Positions 38,203-51,762 are shown, numbered from the stretch's first letter. The stretch: 64,000 bases of DNA from a virus (IMGVR_UViG_3300027708_000013); one strand, 5' to 3'. Notes: a model not told the origin generated them from the sequence alone. Made by a program: numbers and translations.

Positions 38203-38547
38203 ATGCGTATACACGAAATCTCCGTACCTCAATATAAAGAAATAGAATTTGTCTGTGCCAATGCAGAGCATCCTGACGCTACAGATCCCGCTGTGCAACG
38301 AAAACTGTATAGAGAATTACAAAAAATCCCCGGAGTAATACCTTTATATCAAGACTGGACCGATTACAGTGAAGGTCAATATAGTTTAAGTGCTATATAT
38401 AAAGACCGTGCTGTTCGTGGTAAAATTTTATCACTGGCTCGGCAGTTGGGTGTGGAGGTTGATGTGGAACAAACAGTGGATGGGGACTATGTTGATCGTG
38501 CCTTAACAGGTAGTCACGAAGGACAAATTAACGCAGATAATTCTTAA
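38203..38547 (+). CDS. Hypothetical protein (MRIHEI N-terminus); possible internal head protein
   Basis: 114 aa, follows 37492 on the same strand. Confidence 0.6.
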   Translation: MRIHEISVPQYKEIEFVCANAEHPDATDPAVQRKLYRELQKIPGVIPLYQDWTDYSEGQYSLSAIYKDRAVRGKILSLARQLGVEVDVEQTVDGDYVDRALTGSHEGQINADNS

Positions 38548-39634
38548 CCGCATTGACCACACTTTCAACTTCCGTGTCACGCAGTTCAGGATAAATCGGT
38601 AAGCTGATTGCTTCTCTCGAAAACGCTGTAGATTCTCTAAACAATTCTCTAGCATAGTCAATATAGTTGTAACCCACAGGCAATTCAAACAAGGGTGTGT
38701 CATAGTGGAAACGTGAGTCGATTCCACAACTCTGTAAGTAATCACGCAGGCCATGACGTTCGCTCAAGCGTATTACAAATTTACTCCAGGCCGAAGTTAC
38801 GTGTTCACCGGGTAATACCACATCCACCCATTCCGCAAGTTCTTGTGTATAGTATTCGGCGATAGCCTGTCTACGTGTTTGCCAAGCATCAAAGTATTTG
38901 AGTTTGACCAACATTTGAGCTGAATCGCTTTCGCTCATTTTGCTGTTGGTGCCAATGAAGCAATGATCCAGGTATTTGCCATTGTCACGTAAATTTAGTA
39001 ACTGATGATAAACATCAACATCGTCCGTGAGCACCATGCCACCTGAACCATAGTTATTTAGATTCTTGGTAGGGTCAAAACTCAACACACCGATGTCACC
39101 AAGACTGCCCGAGGGTTGGTCCTTGTATCTAGCACCAAAACTCTGTGCAGCATCTTCTATCACACGTATGTTGCTGTTGAAAAACTCTGTTTGCAGTCTA
39201 AATCTATCATAGTCTACAACATGTCCAAACAGGTTGGCATACATGATACAGTTAACCCCAGCTCCGGTTAGGGCCATGTCCATGCTTTCTAAATCTATCA
39301 GTGCTGCATCATCGGTGTCGCAAAACACCGGAGTATTGCCGGCATACAGTACCGAGTTGATGGTGGCTGCAAAACTCAAGGTGGGAATTAACACACGAGA
39401 TTCCTGTGCCAATATCACTTGTTGTGCAAAAATCAATCCCTGTGTGGCACTGTTCACTGCCACTGCATATTCTCGATCACATCGACGGGCTATGGCTGTT
39501 TCGAACCGTCGAGTCGAGTCACCATCTAACACCTGCCCGGATCTGTACACTTGATCCACAGCATCAAGTATCTCTTCACGCAGAGTCAAGAATTGACGAT
39601 CAACGCCGAAGAAGGGTATCCGTGATCCACTCAT
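38528..39634 (-). CDS. DegT/DnrJ/EryC1/StrS PLP-dependent sugar aminotransferase
   Basis: MSGSRIPFFG start (39634), VNSATQGL, IEDAAQSFG, SFDPTKNL (PLP lysine), SLPIYP. Confidence 0.9.
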   Translation of the reverse strand: MSGSRIPFFGVDRQFLTLREEILDAVDQVYRSGQVLDGDSTRRFETAIARRCDREYAVAVNSATQGLIFAQQVILAQESRVLIPTLSFAATINSVLYAGNTPVFCDTDDAALIDLESMDMALTGAGVNCIMYANLFGHVVDYDRFRLQTEFFNSNIRVIEDAAQSFGARYKDQPSGSLGDIGVLSFDPTKNLNNYGSGGMVLTDDVDVYHQLLNLRDNGKYLDHCFIGTNSKMSESDSAQMLVKLKYFDAWQTRRQAIAEYYTQELAEWVDVVLPGEHVTSAWSKFVIRLSERHGLRDYLQSCGIDSRFHYDTPLFELPVGYNYIDYARELFRESTAFSREAISLPIYPELRDTEVESVVNAVKNYLR

Positions 39635-40556
39635 GATATTTTCTAAATCCTGACTCAATGTCTGTGGTGCCACGATAACCAAAGTCTTCGCCGGCACGTA
39701 TGTTACTTAATGTTCCTCTTGATGGAAATCTAGGATTGGCATCGACAATTTTTATTCTGCCACCACCGGCTATCTTCACTGCCAATTCGGCAGCTTCCAC
39801 CAAACTTCTTGCCTCACCTCGGGTAATATTATATGTTCTACCACTGCTGTTGAAATTGACAGCGGCACGAACAATACCATCCACTACATCATCCACATAG
39901 GTAAAATCCAACAGTTCTCTGGCGCCACACACAGTCAATTCTTCATTGCGTATGGCCGAGAGTAAAAATCTACTCACAACTCTATCAACAACATCATGTG
40001 GGCCATACACAGCACTGGGCCGAACCACAACATGGTCAATGCCGGCTGTTCTACAAAGATCTCTAGTAAGAGTTTCACCAGTGAGTTTTAATATTCCGTA
40101 GATGCCACGTGGCCTGCACTGCATGTCTTCATAGGCCAAGGGAGCAAAGTCACCGTACACCATGCTGCTACTGATGTAAACAAATCTGCGTAACTGTACC
40201 TGCTCGCTGGCACGAAGTAGATTTATCAATCCTTGTGTCAACACTTGACTGCCTTCTGCAGGATTTAAATCCACTGCTTTGGCTCGGGGATATGCTGCAC
40301 AGTGTATAACCACATCCGGACGACATTCTTCAAACGCATTTACGACGTAATTGTAGTTTCTAATGTCTACATTGTGTATGCTCTGTGTTGAGATACGGTC
40401 AAGACGTTGTTGATGTAGGGGAGTTAATTCTGCGTCAGGTATAATACCATAGTTGGTAAAGTTGTCCAGCACACAAACTTCATGACCTTGATGTTCTAAT
40501 AGTCGTACTACGTTGTGTCCAATAAATCCAGCACCGCCGGTTACTAGAAATTTCAT
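39600..40556 (-). CDS. NAD-dependent NDP-sugar epimerase/dehydratase
   Basis: VTGGAGFIG, SSSMVYG, YGILK (YxxxK), RPSAVYGP, DFTYVDD. Confidence 0.9.
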   Translation of the reverse strand: MKFLVTGGAGFIGHNVVRLLEHQGHEVCVLDNFTNYGIIPDAELTPLHQQRLDRISTQSIHNVDIRNYNYVVNAFEECRPDVVIHCAAYPRAKAVDLNPAEGSQVLTQGLINLLRASEQVQLRRFVYISSSMVYGDFAPLAYEDMQCRPRGIYGILKLTGETLTRDLCRTAGIDHVVVRPSAVYGPHDVVDRVVSRFLLSAIRNEELTVCGARELLDFTYVDDVVDGIVRAAVNFNSSGRTYNITRGEARSLVEAAELAVKIAGGGRIKIVDANPRFPSRGTLSNIRAGEDFGYRGTTDIESGFRKYHEWITDTLLRR

Positions 40557-47427: not shown

Positions 47428-47456
47428 ATTATAACAAATCTGGAATTCTGGGTCAA
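47428..47456 (-). promoter_or_regulatory. Strong sigma70-type early promoter
   Basis: TTGACC-cagaattccagatttgt-TATAAT (17-nt spacer, extended -10). Confidence 0.85.
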
Positions 47457-48230: not shown

Positions 48231-48259
48231 ATTATAACAAACCCTGAATTATGGGTCAA
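48231..48259 (-). promoter_or_regulatory. Strong sigma70-type early promoter
   Basis: TTGACC-cataattcagggtttgt-TATAAT. Confidence 0.85.
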
Positions 48260-48408: not shown

Positions 48409-48437
48409 ATTATACGGTATTGCGAATTCTGGGTCAA
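48409..48437 (-). promoter_or_regulatory. Strong sigma70-type early promoter
   Basis: TTGACC-cagaattcgcaataccg-TATAAT. Confidence 0.85.
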
Positions 48438-48439
48438 CC

Positions 48440-48467
48440 AAAAGAAAAGCCCCACGAAGGAGCTTTT
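48440..48467 (-). terminator. Rho-independent terminator
   Basis: Minus strand AAAAGCTCC-TTCGT-GGGGCTTTT-CTTTT, downstream of 48495..49547. Confidence 0.7.
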
Positions 48468-48494
48468 ATTATTAATTTTAGTACTAATTTTTAG

Positions 48495-49547
48495 TTATTT
48501 TTTGCCGATATATTCGTGACTGTAACAAATACGATAAGCATCTCTAACAGTGGTGGTACCACCATATCCCGGCATCTTACGTGCAGAGCCATCGGAATTG
48601 AGATAACTACCTGTCCTGCTTTTCTTGTTCATTGAAGTGGCTCGCCATAATGGTGACTTTTCTCTGTGTTCACCAAATGATGGGTGTGCAGTTTTAGAAA
48701 AGTATCGTAATCCACGACTGACATAGATTTCAGCAATGGCGTCCGAGAAGGCTGTGCCTATGCCCATGCCTTGGAACTCGGGCAAGATCACTGTCCTGTG
48801 ACCACGCCAGTAACTATGTATATCTCTATTGGTTGAATGTATCGCGGCATGAAACCCAATGGGCTTGTTGCCCAACAACAGTACATAGTAGTGAGCACTC
48901 TTTGAGATAGCAGTGTCTAGATAGTGATACTTACCAAAATATTGCCAATAGTCTCGACTTGTGCTTTGGATGGTAAGCGTAATCTTGGGTCTTGTTCCCA
49001 TTGGAAGAAGTGACCTCCGATTTTCTAAGACACAGAGATCTGTGTCATAAACGTAGTCGGGATCAAGCCATTCTACTATGTCTCTGTGGCATGACGCAAT
49101 GTAAAGTGCAGACTTTTCTGTTTGCCGGTCATAAAACTTACGCATACTCAATGCAAGACTTTTAGCAGTATCCCTGTCCACTACTGACGTAAACTCATCT
49201 ATTTTGTTGATGCCTTGGTCCAAGCACTGGGCCATTTCAAATCTGTGGCGCTCGCCATTGCTCAGTGTTGACACAGGGCGGAACCATGCTGGTATTGATC
49301 TTAATCCGCAGGCCAATAATAATTCTTCTCCACGCTCGGCTGTAGAGAAATTACTTATAACCCACGCTTCGTCGTCAATGTAAGGTTGTTTGAGTTCTCC
49401 AATGTTGCGTAGGATTGTGCTCTTACCCGAACCCGATGTGCCTACAATCAGCACAATACCTTCTTGTGGCAGATCAGGGATAGCGACCGCAGATTCTTGA
49501 TAATCTTTGATATCGTATTTTGTTTTAATGGTTTCTAAGTAGCTCAT
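48495..49547 (-). CDS. ABC-type ATPase fused to a GNAT acetyltransferase
   Basis: GTSGSGKS (Walker A), LSNGE (signature), IDEF (Walker B); C-terminal HRTVILPEFQGMGIG acetyl-CoA motif. Confidence 0.85.
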   Translation of the reverse strand: MSYLETIKTKYDIKDYQESAVAIPDLPQEGIVLIVGTSGSGKSTILRNIGELKQPYIDDEAWVISNFSTAERGEELLLACGLRSIPAWFRPVSTLSNGERHRFEMAQCLDQGINKIDEFTSVVDRDTAKSLALSMRKFYDRQTEKSALYIASCHRDIVEWLDPDYVYDTDLCVLENRRSLLPMGTRPKITLTIQSTSRDYWQYFGKYHYLDTAISKSAHYYVLLLGNKPIGFHAAIHSTNRDIHSYWRGHRTVILPEFQGMGIGTAFSDAIAEIYVSRGLRYFSKTAHPSFGEHREKSPLWRATSMNKKSRTGSYLNSDGSARKMPGYGGTTTVRDAYRICYSHEYIGKK

Positions 49548-49548
49548 A

Positions 49549-50106
49549 TTATATAATCAAATGTTTAAAATAATTGTAATGGTCTTCCAGGGTCCAAGCC
49601 AATGGATCAATAGCCGTTCCGTCGTGCGTCTGGTAGGTGGCCGAAAAAACATTTGAATACCGTACAAATGGCAACCAAATATTTGGAGTACGACTGGCCC
49701 ACCCGGTTTCCTTTAGTTCCTTGTGTTTAGCACGACTCAATTTAACCGTGGGCGAATTAAGTGCTTGCTTGATTGTGATGGTCTTGGATAATAATAAATC
49801 ACGAATGATTTTCTCCGGAATCAAATGCTCAAAATCGCATTTTTTGTCGGCTCCAATTTCATGATAGTGTGCTTGCATACCATCTCGTTGTTCGATGCAA
49901 TATCCATGATATCTGCGTAAATTGTCATCAATTTCATTGCGAATTTCTCGTAATTCTTGTTGATCGTTTTTCACAGCATGGTATTCATCAAGCAAGCGGC
50001 CAAGATTTCTAGTACAACGACGGGCCACTGTTTGATAAGTTTCAGGGGTACGTTTGGTTTTGCCATAATTGGGTACTATGAACTTTTCTAATGACTCCTT
50101 AAGCAT
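49549..50106 (-). CDS. Hypothetical protein, possible His-Me/HNH-like nuclease fold
   Basis: DFEHLIP motif; weak evidence. Confidence 0.4.
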   Translation of the reverse strand: MLKESLEKFIVPNYGKTKRTPETYQTVARRCTRNLGRLLDEYHAVKNDQQELREIRNEIDDNLRRYHGYCIEQRDGMQAHYHEIGADKKCDFEHLIPEKIIRDLLLSKTITIKQALNSPTVKLSRAKHKELKETGWASRTPNIWLPFVRYSNVFSATYQTHDGTAIDPLAWTLEDHYNYFKHLII

Positions 50107-50599
50107 TGGCCAATCCCCATAAATCTTCTCCGAACAGGCGTCTGATCAGAATTTGTTCTGGCTCGTCACCCCAATTATTTTTTACAATTTTATTGCACCA
50201 TGCTCGAGCATGGTCTTCGCTAGGCACCTTAAACGGGCATGATCCAAAAGAAGTTGCTATGTACGGTTTTTCAAGAACTATTTCTTTGATATGTAATTCA
50301 TCTTGTTTAATCTGATTTCTTATGTAGTCAAAAAGCATTTTTTCCTTAACTTGAAATAATTCTGTACGACAGTCGCCAACTAGACTTGTTCCTGAACAAT
50401 AATCAAAATTCTTTTTAACTCTTGATTCTAATTTTTCAATGTGGCTGGCTCGGCCAAAAAACAAATAATCAAGTCCAACAGTGTTCCAACAATTTCTTTG
50501 TCTCAATCGAACAGCCGACCAAGGAGTCAACGCCTTTCCTACTTTCCATACATCTGCTTGGCCGGTTAAATCTTTGTGTGCATATAAAAAATGGCTCAT
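50099..50599 (-). CDS. Possible GIY-YIG-like nuclease
   Basis: FLY..K....WKVGKA....R.RQ..and TELF pattern. Confidence 0.45.
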   Translation of the reverse strand: MSHFLYAHKDLTGQADVWKVGKALTPWSAVRLRQRNCWNTVGLDYLFFGRASHIEKLESRVKKNFDYCSGTSLVGDCRTELFQVKEKMLFDYIRNQIKQDELHIKEIVLEKPYIATSFGSCPFKVPSEDHARAWCNKIVKNNWGDEPEQILIRRLFGEDLWGLANA

Positions 50600-51654
50600 T
50601 GTGCTACCTCCTGTGGAAATAGACCTGGAGCAATATTGCCATCCTCTATACCAGTTTTACTTGCATTACCGTGAAATGGTAAATTTAGCGTTCCGCCGTT
50701 GCGTAAATGCAGTTCACGTAAAAAATTACTCATCGCCAACGGAGCATTCCAACCGGCACCTGGATGACTGTGTTCCCATTGTGTTTTGGCCTTTTTGTGC
50801 ACCAATGATGAACTTTTAAATGATCGTTTGGCTGTGGACAATACCTGAAGCATCCAATTGTCCGGAAGATCAAATTGAGTAGGGTTGGTACCAATCAATC
50901 TTTGCAGTTCTACTAGCCCGATATAACAACCCTGGTCAATTTCTTCCTGCATTAGAAATACTGTTTTGATAGCGTCCAGTACACGATTCAAAATTGTTCC
51001 GGATTCATCTAATTCAATACCTTTTTGTGCATATTTAAAATGACTAAAGAAGTGATCGTTGTCTCCACGCAAGGTATCGCTGTTGCGTGAATTCTTGTCT
51101 TGAAGGTCTATTCCCAGTTGATCAAATTGATCCTGCATGGTACGAGCACGAACATTTTTGATATCACGACTACCGTTTTTGTAGCGTACCAATGCGTTAC
51201 GATGTAAGTCGCCTGGGTTGAGACGTTTTACACCTGTGTCGTTTAGCATTTCGAAAGCATACGAGGCAAAGTTTGGATCGTCTGTTTCCACTACAGCACA
51301 GGGAATTTTTGTGTAGTCAAGGATTGCCGCGGCCAGTGCCCGGTGCTGAGCATCATACAAATAGATAGTACCGCCTTTAATACAACAAGCCGACCCAGGA
51401 CTGCATATTCTAGGATCCCATTTTTTCATGATATTGATCACGTGTTTGTGTAGTACGTCACGTTGGACCTCATAGTCGATCCAAAGATCTTCAATGTCAA
51501 TCATGGTGCTGTGTGGAAATGTATGTACTAATGCTTTTGCACGAGCTCGCCAAGCCTCAAGGTCTTTTTCGGAAACTTCGTAATGTGCTTTGAGCTGTGA
51601 TTCTACTTCTGCTACTACCTCCGTAAATTTACGGACTAGGCGTTTTGCGGCCAT
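50596..51654 (-). CDS. ParB/Srx-like (DGQHR-type) N-terminal domain protein
   Basis: IDIEDLWID.EVQR, YDAQHRALAA, IPC.VV..FEMLN. Confidence 0.7.
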   Translation of the reverse strand: MAAKRLVRKFTEVVAEVESQLKAHYEVSEKDLEAWRARAKALVHTFPHSTMIDIEDLWIDYEVQRDVLHKHVINIMKKWDPRICSPGSACCIKGGTIYLYDAQHRALAAAILDYTKIPCAVVETDDPNFASYAFEMLNDTGVKRLNPGDLHRNALVRYKNGSRDIKNVRARTMQDQFDQLGIDLQDKNSRNSDTLRGDNDHFFSHFKYAQKGIELDESGTILNRVLDAIKTVFLMQEEIDQGCYIGLVELQRLIGTNPTQFDLPDNWMLQVLSTAKRSFKSSSLVHKKAKTQWEHSHPGAGWNAPLAMSNFLRELHLRNGGTLNLPFHGNASKTGIEDGNIAPGLFPQEVAQ

Positions 51655-51733
51655 TTATTTCTCCTTTATTAAGCTTCGTTACCCGACACAATGCGGGATT
51701 AGTTTAGTAAACGATTTACTTTAACTATTTACA

Positions 51734-51762
51734 ACTATACACAACTTCAAATCTACTGTCAA
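51734..51762 (-). promoter_or_regulatory. sigma70-type promoter for the ParB cassette
   Basis: TTGACA-17 nt-TATAGT, followed by TAAATA (51726-51731) and two small hairpins in the leader. Confidence 0.75.

What the first reader, a model, noticed from the sequence alone, without database searches (positions are those of the whole stretch)
48440..51762. Self-contained four-gene cassette: ParB/DGQHR-like, GIY-YIG-like, HNH-like, ABC-ATPase-GNAT
Seen: four tightly coupled genes bounded by their own sigma70 promoter (51734-51762, with leader hairpins) and terminator (48440-48467). Known: ParB/DGQHR domains (DndB/DpdB-like) and GNAT enzymes occur in DNA-modification and defence loci. Inference: an uncharacterised phage-borne modification/restriction, anti-defence or phage-exclusion system, in which the GNAT acetylates DNA or protein and the putative nucleases attack unmodified targets. 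The nuclease calls are weak.
Basis: partly seen in the sequence, partly recalled or inferred. Interest (0 to 1): 0.7.

Follow-up and report, generated by a model that had tools for sequence, protein, structure and literature searches.

The report
Mosaic phage nuclease and DNA-acylation island
The four overlapping genes are real and were named about right, but they are three separately inherited units in a shuffled hot-spot of a giant freshwater phage: a ParB-like/HNH-like nuclease pair, an inserted selfish nuclease gene, and an ATPase-acetyltransferase already predicted in print to modify DNA.

Summary
Observation confirmed. Four minus-strand genes overlap or abut, between an 11/12 sigma70-like promoter (51762-51734) and a hairpin-plus-T terminator (48467-48445). 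The 'leader hairpins' fold no better than shuffled sequence.

- P1 has a ParB/Srx fold and all three DGQHR-domain motifs.
- P2 is a T5orf172/MUG113 (GIY-YIG superfamily) protein.
- P3 has an E-H...N...H pattern. Its best structural match, a weak one, is the T5 HNH nickase SciA.
- P4 is a full-length member of phrog_11143, the ABC-ATPase-GNAT family that Iyer/Aravind predicted to acylate a DNA base.

Interpretation partly supported: this is not one fixed system.
- In about 73 distinct related loci with window-type P1, P3 follows in all but one contig-end locus.
- The P1-P3 gap is empty in 21 loci. Elsewhere it holds unrelated nuclease genes, a homing-endonuclease pattern.
- P4 is absent from two near-complete relatives that have P1-P3. 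A complete relative has P4 but neither P1 nor P3.
- Upstream of P4, relatives carry DNA methyltransferases, other ParB-like proteins or other nuclease-like genes.
- In four unrelated cultured phages a small ParB_N gene directly precedes ABC-GNAT.

Best reading: a hypervariable DNA-modification/nuclease island with a GmrS/GmrD-like split nuclease. No function is tested. This scan reached the same reading earlier on other DNA (e1-5375207, e1-5375214, e1-5365020).

The parts
51734..51762 (-). sigma70-like promoter TTGACA-17 nt-TATAGT upstream of P1
   Evidence: (11 of 12 matches) and the sequence. This is a consensus match only; no transcript data were examined.
51655..51733 (-). 5' leader with an AAAGGAG Shine-Dalgarno 7 nt before the ATG; the small hairpins are not significant
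   Evidence: z = +0.99 against shuffles.
50596..51654 (-). P1: ParB/Srx-fold protein of DGQHR type (QR = Q64-R65; D101-A-Q-H-R105, DGQHR in some relatives; FxxxN = F134...N138) with a C-terminal helical domain of unknown fold
   Evidence: Alignment A2. AF2 model, pLDDT 83. Foldseek top rows are KorB, ParB, Srx and PadC. VIA-align gives Z 8.1 to sulfiredoxin 6ky4, 7.6 to KorB and 7.2 to PadC over residues 48-142. phrog_1033 'ParB-like' E 2.8e-4. Motif definitions come from PMC4619093.
50099..50599 (-). P2: T5orf172/MUG113 (GIY-YIG superfamily) protein, read as a free-standing homing-endonuclease-like insert
   Evidence: Atlas feature neighbours score 0.93-0.94; structural neighbours give TM 0.61 by query and 0.74 by row to a T5orf172 cluster. 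The homologue in L056 hits MUG113 at E 3.4e-4 and T5orf172 at E 0.0099. Conserved FLY.H, KVG, R31/R33 and T79-E80. A P2 homologue fills the P1-P3 gap in only 2 of about 73 related loci; L057 carries one downstream of P3.
49549..50106 (-). P3: helical hairpin (residues 21-72) plus a putative His-Me/HNH-like nuclease core (E93-H94 ... N117 ... H128)
   Evidence: Alignments A1 and A3. H94 is invariant in 49 diverse members, and position 128 is mostly D in the wider family and H in the window's subfamily. AF2 model, pLDDT 87. Best VIA-align row is the T5 SciA endonuclease 9qgx, Z 5.1, 93 residues aligned. An Atlas row for Phage_T5_Nicking_endo gives TM 0.51 by row. No Pfam, PDB-sequence or Foldseek-PDB match.
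48495..49547 (-). P4: soluble ABC-type ATPase (Walker A GTSGSGKST, signature LSNGERHR, Walker B IDEFTS) fused to a GNAT acyltransferase (acyl-CoA motif QGMGIG)
   Evidence: phrog_11143 E 1.2e-81 over residues 3-349. Pfam ABC_tran and Acetyltransf_1. tblastn finds it in 91 cultured phage records at 31-39% identity, including Tenacibaculum phage pT24. The family is described in PMC7824862.
48445..48467 (-). intrinsic-terminator-like hairpin with a T run after P4
   Evidence: and the sequence. The next TTGACC-17-TATAAT promoter starts immediately after it.

Best explanation
The 3.3-kb operon is a mosaic of three units. It sits in a hypervariable 'DNA-modification and nuclease' slot between the lysozyme/g52395 side and the MoxR ATPase gene of a family of about 340-kb freshwater phages.

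Unit 1 is P1 plus P3, a linked pair. P1 is a ParB/Srx-fold, DGQHR-type protein, inferred to bind NTP and to load onto or sense DNA. P3 is a small protein with an HNH-like E-H...N...H core, inferred to cut DNA. The architecture mirrors the split GmrS/GmrD (DUF262 + DUF1524) Type IV restriction enzymes. I infer a two-component, nucleotide-regulated DNA endonuclease used in conflict with host DNA or competing phages. Which DNA it spares or attacks is unknown.

Unit 2 is P2, a T5orf172/GIY-YIG-type free-standing homing-endonuclease-like gene that has invaded the P1-P3 junction.

Unit 3 is P4, an accessory member of the widespread phage ABC-ATPase-GNAT family, predicted but never shown to put an acyl group on a DNA base using ATP and acyl-CoA. 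Because small ParB proteins precede this enzyme in unrelated phages, P1 may double as its ParB-type helper here (inference).

Shown here: the gene anatomy, the folds and motifs, and the linkage patterns. Inferred: every biochemical activity.
For: P1-P3 linkage: in about 73 distinct IMG/VR loci with window-type P1, P3 follows it in all but one locus that ends about 290 bp past P1 (L081). A distant phage (L093/L095) keeps the pair at 41% (P1, hhalign E 2e-63) and 25% (P3) identity. A second, very divergent ParB-like family (c16, with IDVTIQR and WDAQHT motifs) also precedes P3.

P1: ParB/Srx fold and the QR, D(A/G)QHR and FxxxN motifs, as defined in PMC4619093.

P3: conserved (E)H-IP...N...H/D pattern, with SciA HNH as the top structural row.

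P2 as a mobile insert: the gap is empty in 21 loci, holds an HNH_3-like family in about 50, and holds MvaI/BcnI-like, HNH+NUMOD3 or T5orf172 genes in others. A NUMOD3 gene sits between P3 and P4 in L056.

P4 as an accessory gene: it is absent from relatives G001 (95% complete) and G002 (100% complete), which both have P1-P3. Complete relative G008 has P4 but neither P1 nor P3.

The island's theme: N6_N4_Mtase (E 7e-36), Eco57I/N6_Mtase-type methylases and a PD-(D/E)xK-looking gene sit just upstream of P4 in relatives.

P4's family and predicted role.

ParB_N genes directly upstream of ABC-GNAT: Leptospira LE4, Pasteurella Pmp13, Oenococcus unk162 and Arthrobacter EastWest.

Precedent that a phage ParB activates a DNA-modifying enzyme: PMC13229309.
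Against: No Pfam, NCBIfam or PADLOC model for DUF262, DndB, DpdB, DUF1524 or HNH matches P1 or P3. The GmrSD likeness is therefore one of architecture and motifs, not demonstrated homology.

P3's nuclease fold rests on Z 5.1 and TM about 0.5, which is within the range of chance for a partly helical model. N117 and H128 are not conserved across the wider family; position 128 is mostly D there.

P3 also occurs without any window-type P1 (L114/L115; G007), so the pair is not obligate.

P1 shows no detectable sequence relation to the small ParB_N partners of ABC-GNAT elsewhere.

The ATPase half of P4 is most similar to ribosome-associated ABC-F/EttA proteins, so a non-DNA target is not excluded.

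No activity has been measured for any of the four proteins.
Confidence: 0.6

Rival explanations
1. One reading: all four genes are parts of one dedicated modification-restriction or anti-defence machine. The GNAT marks self DNA and the two or three nucleases attack unmarked DNA.
For: The genes are tightly coupled under one promoter and one terminator. The same four functional classes recur together in L056. When P4 is present in a locus that has window-type P1-P3, it is always downstream of P3.
Against: A P2 homologue fills the P1-P3 gap in only 2 of about 73 loci, and that slot is otherwise empty or filled by unrelated nuclease genes. P1-P3 occur without P4 in near-complete genomes. P4 occurs without P1-P3 in a complete genome and in L110, the closest relative by flanking genes.
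Confidence: 0.08
2. P1-P3 is a genome-processing system rather than a weapon. P3 is a site-specific nickase like T5 SciA, guided by the ParB-like P1, and it nicks the phage's own DNA for replication, recombination or packaging.
For: The T5 SciA nicking endonuclease is the best structural row for P3, and the Phage_T5_Nicking_endo family appears in the Atlas search. In the distant phage L093-L095 a DNA ligase gene follows the P3 homologue. The window's neighbours are DNA-metabolism genes (ThyX, 5'-3' exonuclease).
Against: The structural match is weak (Z 5.1). The pair is missing from a complete relative (G008) and from L110, so it is dispensable. It lies in a shuffled island alongside methylases and nuclease-type genes.
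Confidence: 0.12
3. P1 is the phage's counterpart of DpdB, the ParB/DndB-like ATPase that helps DpdA insert 7-deazaguanine into DNA. It serves the 7-deazaguanine system encoded nearby in the same genome.
For: Earlier notes of this scan (e1-5380151, e1-5380175, not re-tested here) place a folE-queD-queE operon at 57.6-62.7 kb and a DpdA-like gene just beyond the window. P1 carries DGQHR-type motifs, as DndB/DpdB-type proteins do (PMC4619093).
Against: No PADLOC or Pfam DndB/DpdB-type model matches P1. P1 is coupled to the nuclease-like P3, not to a transglycosylase, and lies at least 6 kb from the deazaguanine genes. It is absent from relatives in a variable island. I could not test whether those relatives keep DpdA, because the TGT model found nothing even where DpdA is expected.
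Confidence: 0.07
4. P4 does not modify DNA. It acylates a protein or RNA, for example a ribosome or tRNA component, in the manner of the ATPase-coupled acetyltransferase TmcA, or a host protein as phage Rac does. Its position next to nuclease genes would then be incidental.
For: The ATPase half is most similar to EttA/ABC-F and ABCE1, which are ribosome-associated ABC proteins. GNATs of phages are known to acetylate host proteins (PMC7824862). No DNA acylation by this family has been demonstrated.
Against: It recurs next to ParB_N genes, DNA methyltransferases and nucleases. In Mu-like phages it sits at the right end after the tail-fibre genes, where Mu carries mom (that position is recalled from memory). 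Those ABC similarities cover only generic ATPase motifs.
Confidence: 0.13

Closest known systems
GmrS/GmrD (GmrSD; DUF262 + DUF1524) Type IV restriction endonucleases, including the split two-gene form of E. coli CT596 (PMC4619093)
   Same: Both are two-part systems: a ParB/Srx-fold protein with QR, DGQ(Q/H)R and FxxxN motifs, paired with a His-Me/HNH-type protein carrying an E/D-H...N... catalytic pattern. The genes are adjacent and inherited together.
   Different: There is no HMM-level match to PF03235 or PF07510. P1 has D-A-Q-H-R and its own helical C-domain. P3 is short (185 aa) with an N-terminal helical hairpin. The pair is encoded by a lytic-type jumbo phage, not a defence island. The substrate is unknown.
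ABC-ATPase + GNAT phage family predicted to acylate a DNA nucleobase (Iyer, Zhang, Burroughs, Aravind, NAR 2013, as cited in PMC7824862; phrog_11143; example Tenacibaculum phage pT24)
   Same: P4 is a full-length member: phrog_11143 E 1.2e-81, and 35% identity to the pT24 protein named in the paper. All ATPase and GNAT motifs are intact.
   Different: Here the gene lies downstream of a large DGQHR-type ParB protein and an HNH-like gene. Elsewhere it follows a small ParB_N protein or precedes a formyltransferase.
Free-standing homing endonuclease genes of T4-like phages (seg/mob genes) and T5orf172/GIY-YIG proteins
   Same: P2 is a small nuclease-superfamily gene wedged between two conserved genes. 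It is sporadic among relatives, and the same site is filled by unrelated HNH, NUMOD3 and MvaI/BcnI-like genes or left empty.
   Different: No cleavage or homing has been shown. PMC7824862 also proposes a recombination or Holliday-junction-resolvase role for T5orf172 proteins.
ParB-dependent phage DNA-modifying enzymes (ParB-activated thymine dioxygenases, PMC13229309)
   Same: A phage ParB-like protein encoded beside a DNA-modification enzyme acts as its activator on double-stranded DNA. This gives a tested precedent for a ParB + ABC-GNAT partnership.
   Different: The enzyme class differs (Fe/2OG dioxygenase against ATPase-acyltransferase). P1 is a different ParB family and is primarily linked to P3, not to P4.
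T5 SciA HNH nicking endonuclease (PDB 9qgx; Pfam PF26848)
   Same: It is the best structural row for the P3 core, residues 54-157 (Z 5.1, 93 residues aligned; Atlas TM 0.51 by row).
   Different: Identity is 9%, there is no sequence-profile match, and the score lies within the range of chance matches. P3 has an extra helical hairpin.

Membership tests
GmrSD (DUF262/GmrS + DUF1524/GmrD) | N-terminal component with ParB/Srx fold | tested here: met
   VIA-align gives Z 8.1 (Srx), 7.6 (KorB) and 7.2 (PadC) over P1 residues 48-142. The top 8 rows are all ParB/Srx proteins. The Foldseek rows agree.
GmrSD (DUF262/GmrS + DUF1524/GmrD) | QR pair, DGQQR/DGQHR pentapeptide and FxxxN motif (PMC4619093) | tested here: met
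   Q64-R65, D101-(A/G)-Q103-H104-R105 and F134...N138 are invariant in 30 homologues. Motif definitions were read.
GmrSD (DUF262/GmrS + DUF1524/GmrD) | Profile match to PF03235 (GmrSD_N) and PF07510 (DUF1524) | tested here: not met
   No hit at E <= 1 for P1, P3 or their homologues, and none to PADLOC GmrSD, BrxU or SspE models. Only one Atlas neighbour cluster (rank 100) carries GmrSD_N.
GmrSD (DUF262/GmrS + DUF1524/GmrD) | His-Me finger nuclease partner with an E/D-H-N-N type motif | tested here: inconclusive
   E93-H94...N117...H128 is present in the window's subfamily. Only H94 is invariant in the wide family, where position 128 is mostly D. The structural support is weak.
GmrSD (DUF262/GmrS + DUF1524/GmrD) | NTP-dependent cleavage of modified DNA | not testable with these tools
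   Needs biochemistry.
DndB / DGQHR domain (PF14072, TIGR03187) and DpdB | Profile match to the family and linkage to dndACDE or dpdA | tested here: not met
There is no Pfam, NCBIfam or PADLOC hit. The neighbours are P2/P3/P4, a SleB-like hydrolase and MoxR.
DUF6551 (PF20188), a phage-rich ParB-like family | Profile match | tested here: inconclusive
   One of 30 P1 homologues hits at E 0.011. Atlas feature and structure neighbours carry DUF6551 in 11-92% of their members.
T5orf172 / MUG113 (GIY-YIG superfamily) | Profile match and GIY-YIG-type core residues | tested here: inconclusive
   The window's P2 has no Pfam hit. Its homologue in L056 hits MUG113 at 21.6 bits (cut-off 22.3) and T5orf172 at E 0.0099. 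Atlas structure gives TM 0.61/0.74 to a T5orf172 cluster. Y6, K19-V-G21, R31, R33 and E80 are conserved.
Free-standing homing endonuclease genes | Sporadic presence at a fixed intergenic site, with empty sites and unrelated occupants in relatives | tested here: met
   There are 21 empty sites. About 50 loci hold an HNH_3-like gene, and others hold MvaI/BcnI-like, HNH+NUMOD3 or T5orf172 genes.
Free-standing homing endonuclease genes | Cleavage of the empty site and gene conversion | not testable with these tools
   Needs an in vitro cleavage assay or a co-infection assay.
ABC-ATPase-GNAT phage family (phrog_11143; Iyer et al. 2013) | Single chain with a complete ABC ATPase followed by a GNAT, matching the family profile end to end | tested here: met
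   phrog_11143 E 1.2e-81, residues 3-349 of 350. Pfam ABC_tran and Acetyltransf_1 hits pass their cut-offs. Walker A, signature, Walker B and QxxGxG motifs are read.
ABC-ATPase-GNAT phage family (phrog_11143; Iyer et al. 2013) | Genomic association with a ParB-like gene | tested here: met
   P1 lies in the same operon. ParB_N genes lie directly upstream in 4 of 11 cultured-phage contexts examined.
ABC-ATPase-GNAT phage family (phrog_11143; Iyer et al. 2013) | Acylation of a DNA base | not testable with these tools
   This is a prediction in the literature only.
HNH (PF01844) / T5 nicking endonuclease (PF26848) | Profile match or clear beta-beta-alpha-metal fold match for P3 | tested here: inconclusive
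   There are no Pfam hits for 49 family members. The best structural rows are SciA at Z 5.1 and the PF26848 cluster at TM 0.51 by row.

The most novel reading that the evidence does not exclude
P1-P3 is a new, phage-borne family of split GmrSD-like nucleases that read the modification state of DNA. P4, activated by the ParB-like P1, writes a so-far undescribed acyl mark on the DNA of a phage that already carries 7-deazaguanine. The operon would then be a working write-and-discriminate pair built from parts that no database family covers.
Probability: 0.15. Interest if true: 0.75.

Novelty: new variant of a known kind. Interest (0 to 1): 0.38.

Why it matters
The ABC-ATPase-GNAT family is spread across phages of many phyla: 91 cultured phage records and 142 IMG/VR stretches in my searches. 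It was predicted more than a decade ago to acylate DNA, yet it remains untested. This locus and its relatives show it embedded in a shuffled island with DNA methyltransferases, ParB-like proteins and nuclease-like genes. That context strengthens the DNA-modification reading and offers natural with/without comparisons.

The P1-P3 pair has no cultured representative and no database family. It has more than a thousand 90%-identity clusters in metagenomes, and it looks like a phage-side version of a bacterial Type IV restriction architecture. If it is active, it would be an example of phages carrying restriction-like weapons. The finding is nevertheless an annotation-level result: nothing here is mechanistically surprising, and this scan has already reached the same reading on related phages.

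Tried and rejected
- Complex prediction on P1 + P3 returned 'no answer' (score 0.00, controls not run). It is no evidence either way.
- Foldseek against the PDB found nothing for P3. Profile searches of PDB sequences with A1, A2 and A3 gave only chance coiled-coil-type hits.
- BFVD gave one probable structural relative of P3, in Synechococcus phage S-T4 (prob 1.00, TM 0.51). I could not reach its locus: tblastn of P3 and of a distant homologue against cultured phages found nothing.
- tblastn of P1 and megablast of the whole locus against cultured phages found nothing.
- The Pfam TGT model found no DpdA in three near-complete relatives. This is uninformative, since phage DpdA is divergent, so the co-occurrence of P1 with DpdA remains untested.
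- hhalign of the P1 profile against the small ParB_N partner (Pmp13) and against the pT24 and PX29 upstream genes showed no relation.
- phmmer of three genes upstream of distant P4 homologues against PDB sequences found nothing.
- A literature search for SciA gave only unrelated matches.
- The 2013 NAR paper that first described the ABC-GNAT family is not held, so I rely on its citation in PMC7824862.
- I rejected the idea that the P1-P3 pair is a core, essential gene set after finding a complete relative without it.
- I rejected the 'leader hairpins' after the shuffle test.

Full report
WHAT IS THERE.
Four minus-strand ORFs fill 48495-51654:
- P1: 50596-51654, 352 aa
- P2: 50099-50599, 166 aa
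- P3: 49549-50106, 185 aa
- P4: 48495-49547, 350 aa

P1/P2 overlap by 4 nt, P2/P3 overlap by 8 nt, and P3/P4 are 1 nt apart. A TTGACA-17-TATAGT site (11 of 12) lies at 51762-51734. A 9-bp hairpin with a T run lies at 48467-48445 (sequences). The leader has a good Shine-Dalgarno, but its hairpins fold no better than shuffled sequence (z +0.99).

The window comes from an uncultured phage with a contig of about 341 kb. It has no DNA match among 50,697 cultured phage records, and no whole genome is held for it. Neighbouring genes are DNA and nucleotide metabolism and lysis genes: ThyX, MoxR plus VWA, a 5'-3' exonuclease and a SleB-like hydrolase. Earlier notes of this scan place a 7-deazaguanine operon 6 kb further on (not re-tested here).

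THE FOUR PROTEINS.

P1. No Pfam family matches. phrog_1033 'ParB-like' hits at E 2.8e-4. An alignment of 30 homologues (A2) shows invariant Q64-R65, D101-x-Q-H-R105 (DAQHR here, DGQHR in several relatives) and F134...N138. These are the three signatures of the DGQHR/GmrS-type ParB domain as defined in PMC4619093. The AF2 model (pLDDT 83) has a ParB/Srx domain at residues 48-142:
- VIA-align gives Z 8.1 to sulfiredoxin, 7.6 to KorB and 7.2 to PadC, and the first eight rows are all from this superfamily.
- Foldseek agrees.

The C-terminal helical half matches nothing. Atlas neighbours point to DUF6551, ParB_N and, distantly, GmrSD_N.

P2. There is no Pfam hit for the window protein. Its Atlas neighbours by features (0.93-0.94) and by structure (TM 0.61/0.74) are T5orf172/MUG113 clusters. 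A 40%-identical homologue hits MUG113 and T5orf172 just under the cut-offs. The GIY-YIG-type residues are conserved: FLY, KVG, R31/R33 and T79-E80.

P3. No family matches in any library, for it or for 48 diverse relatives. A profile search of 1.84 billion representatives found 146 clusters, mostly stand-alone proteins of about 185 aa. The close family has invariant D-F-E-H-L-I-P, N117-x-P-T-V-x-L-S and H128. Across the wide family H94, P119, R149-Y150 and H176 are invariant, and position 128 is mostly D where the window's subfamily has H. This is an HNH-like E-H...N...H/D pattern.

The AF2 model is confident (pLDDT 87): a long helical hairpin followed by a small beta/alpha core. Structural search results for P3:
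- Foldseek against the PDB finds nothing.
- The best row of the exhaustive VIA-align search is the T5 HNH nickase SciA (Z 5.1, 93 residues aligned).
- The Atlas search lists the T5 nicking-endonuclease family (TM 0.51 by row) and an HNH cluster.

These scores are within the range of chance, so 'HNH-like' is plausible but not shown.

P4. It matches phrog_11143 end to end (E 1.2e-81). It has Pfam ABC_tran and GNAT hits and intact Walker A, signature, Walker B and acyl-CoA motifs. tblastn finds it at 31-39% identity in 91 cultured phages of many hosts. [quoted passage not shown]

ARE THE GENES LINKED ELSEWHERE?

Loci fetched with P1 (104 stretches encode a relative, 80 kept) and then scanned with all four proteins show that P3 follows P1 in every distinct locus. 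The one exception (L081) ends about 290 bp past P1.

The P1-P3 gap takes several forms:
- 5-20 bp in 21 of about 73 distinct loci.
- An ORF of one loosely connected HNH_3-like family in about 50 loci.
- An MvaI/BcnI-like gene in L062.
- An HNH+NUMOD3 gene in L064.
- A P2-type gene in only L028 and L056. L057 carries a P2 homologue downstream of P3 instead.

A NUMOD3 gene also sits between P3 and P4 in L056. Empty sites together with unrelated nuclease genes at one junction are the pattern of free-standing homing endonuclease genes.

The pair itself is older than this phage group. A distant phage (L093-L095) has a P1 homologue (41% identity, hhalign E 2e-63), a CTP-synthase-N-like gene, a P3 homologue (25% identity) and then a DNA ligase.

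P4 is independent of the pair:
- It is absent from G001 (95% complete) and G002 (100% complete, terminal repeats), which both carry P1-P3.
- Loci fetched with P4 (142 stretches encode a relative, 80 kept; about 47 at 74-85% identity, in the same slot between g52395/SleB and MoxR) show many different upstream neighbours.
- Those neighbours are window-type P1+P3; a very divergent ParB-like protein (c16, with IDVTIQR and WDAQHT) plus a P3 variant; a PD-(D/E)xK-looking gene plus P3; an N6_N4 DNA methylase (E 7e-36); Eco57I/N6-type methylases; a distant P1 (c30, DAQHR; hhalign probability 95%); or just an HNH gene.
- L110, the closest relative by flanking genes (about 90% identity), has P4 but no P1-P3.
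- The complete genome G008 has P4 but neither P1 nor P3.
- P3 also occurs without window-type P1 (L114/L115; G007).

The slot is therefore a hypervariable island whose contents are DNA methylases, ParB-like proteins, nuclease-like genes and the ABC-GNAT gene.

THE ParB LINK OF P4.
In 4 of the 11 cultured-phage contexts I examined, the gene directly upstream of ABC-GNAT, and overlapping it, encodes a small ParB_N protein. These are Leptospira LE4 gp14, Pasteurella Pmp13_0047, Oenococcus unk162 gp48 and Arthrobacter EastWest gp74. In three Mu-like or Porphyromonas phages a formyltransferase follows the gene, after the tail genes. P1 is not detectably related in sequence to those small ParB proteins. 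The link is therefore at superfamily level. A tested precedent for a phage ParB activating a DNA-modifying enzyme on double-stranded DNA exists in PMC13229309.

INTERPRETATION.
The best-supported reading is three units.
1. P1+P3 is a ParB/DGQHR protein with an HNH-like partner. Its architecture mirrors split GmrS/GmrD, so it is probably a nucleotide-regulated DNA endonuclease used in conflict. Its target (host, competitor or modified DNA) is unknown.
2. P2 is a selfish T5orf172-type insert.
3. P4 is an accessory member of a known, untested, predicted DNA-acylating family, and may use P1 as its ParB helper.

Membership in GmrSD, DndB or DpdB fails at the profile level. 'Works like' is therefore claimed, and 'is a member' is not.

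The rivals are a single four-part system, a self-nicking system, a DpdB-like helper for the deazaguanine pathway, and a non-DNA target for P4. They are weighed in their own sections of this report.

RELATION TO EARLIER NOTES.
After forming this reading I found that the scan had already followed up near-identical operons in related phages, with the same conclusion (e1-5375207, e1-5375214, e1-5365020). It has also noted ParB + ABC-GNAT modules in many genomes. One of those notes led me to PMC13229309. These notes are not independent evidence. Every claim above rests on my own calls.

VERDICT.
This is a new variant of known kinds: a GmrSD-like split nuclease without a database family, next to a known predicted modification enzyme and a mobile nuclease gene. 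Interest is moderate.

Noticed in passing
window 47428-47456, 48231-48259, 48409-48437 (minus strand): Three near-identical TTGACC-17-TATAAT promoters (11 of 12 each) bracket small genes between P4 and the MoxR gene. In relatives the length of this stretch ranges from about 95 bp to about 2.5 kb, so it is part of the same shuffled region.
   Followed up: partly
L093:264-3900 and L095:2284-4888: In a distant phage, a 211-aa protein matching only the CTP-synthase N-terminal (synthetase) domain (E 2.9e-39) sits between the P1 and P3 homologues, and a DNA ligase follows. A CTP-related enzyme next to a ParB-type protein (ParB proteins can bind CTP) is curious and unexplained.
   Followed up: partly
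L127:4123-5004, L117:3163-4470, L116:3856-5004, L134:2837-3982: In related jumbo phages, DNA methyltransferase genes (N6_N4_Mtase E 7e-36; Eco57I/N6_Mtase-type) sit immediately upstream of the ABC-GNAT gene, in the place that P1-P3 occupy here. The PX29 homologue of P4 likewise has a weak N6_Mtase-like neighbour (L001:5754-7001).
   Followed up: partly
L002 (phiE255), L108 (Komp_PAO1_1), L106 (Porphyromonas phage): In Mu-like and Porphyromonas phages the ABC-GNAT gene overlaps a downstream formyltransferase gene after the tail-fibre genes, near the right genome end. This is where Mu carries mom (Mu's layout is recalled from memory).
   Followed up: no
L119:3207-4433 and five similar loci (c16 family): A 400-413-aa protein with IDVTIQR and WDAQHT (Arg of DGQHR replaced by Thr) precedes a 33-40%-identical P3 variant. 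It looks like a second, highly divergent ParB-like partner of P3, undetected by Pfam.
   Followed up: partly
proteins P0283 (6328 aa) and P0288 (7917 aa): Two giant proteins match the helical-hairpin part of the P3 profile (positions about 27-105) in 17 and 23 separate stretches. This is probably coiled-coil repeat similarity, but I did not examine it.
   Followed up: no
L096:1986-4576: A bacterial-looking contig carries a distant P3 homologue directly after a 656-aa DUF2779 protein and next to a ParDE toxin-antitoxin pair. P3-type proteins are therefore not confined to phages or to ParB partners.
   Followed up: no
G007:C1:162640-163185: The P3 homologue of this 80%-complete relative is read through one in-frame TGA. 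It may be a broken gene or a sequencing error.
   Followed up: no
window 38528-40556: A DegT/DnrJ-type aminotransferase gene and an NAD-dependent sugar epimerase/dehydratase gene lie next to ThyX. These are sugar-tailoring genes in a phage whose DNA is thought to be modified.
   Followed up: no
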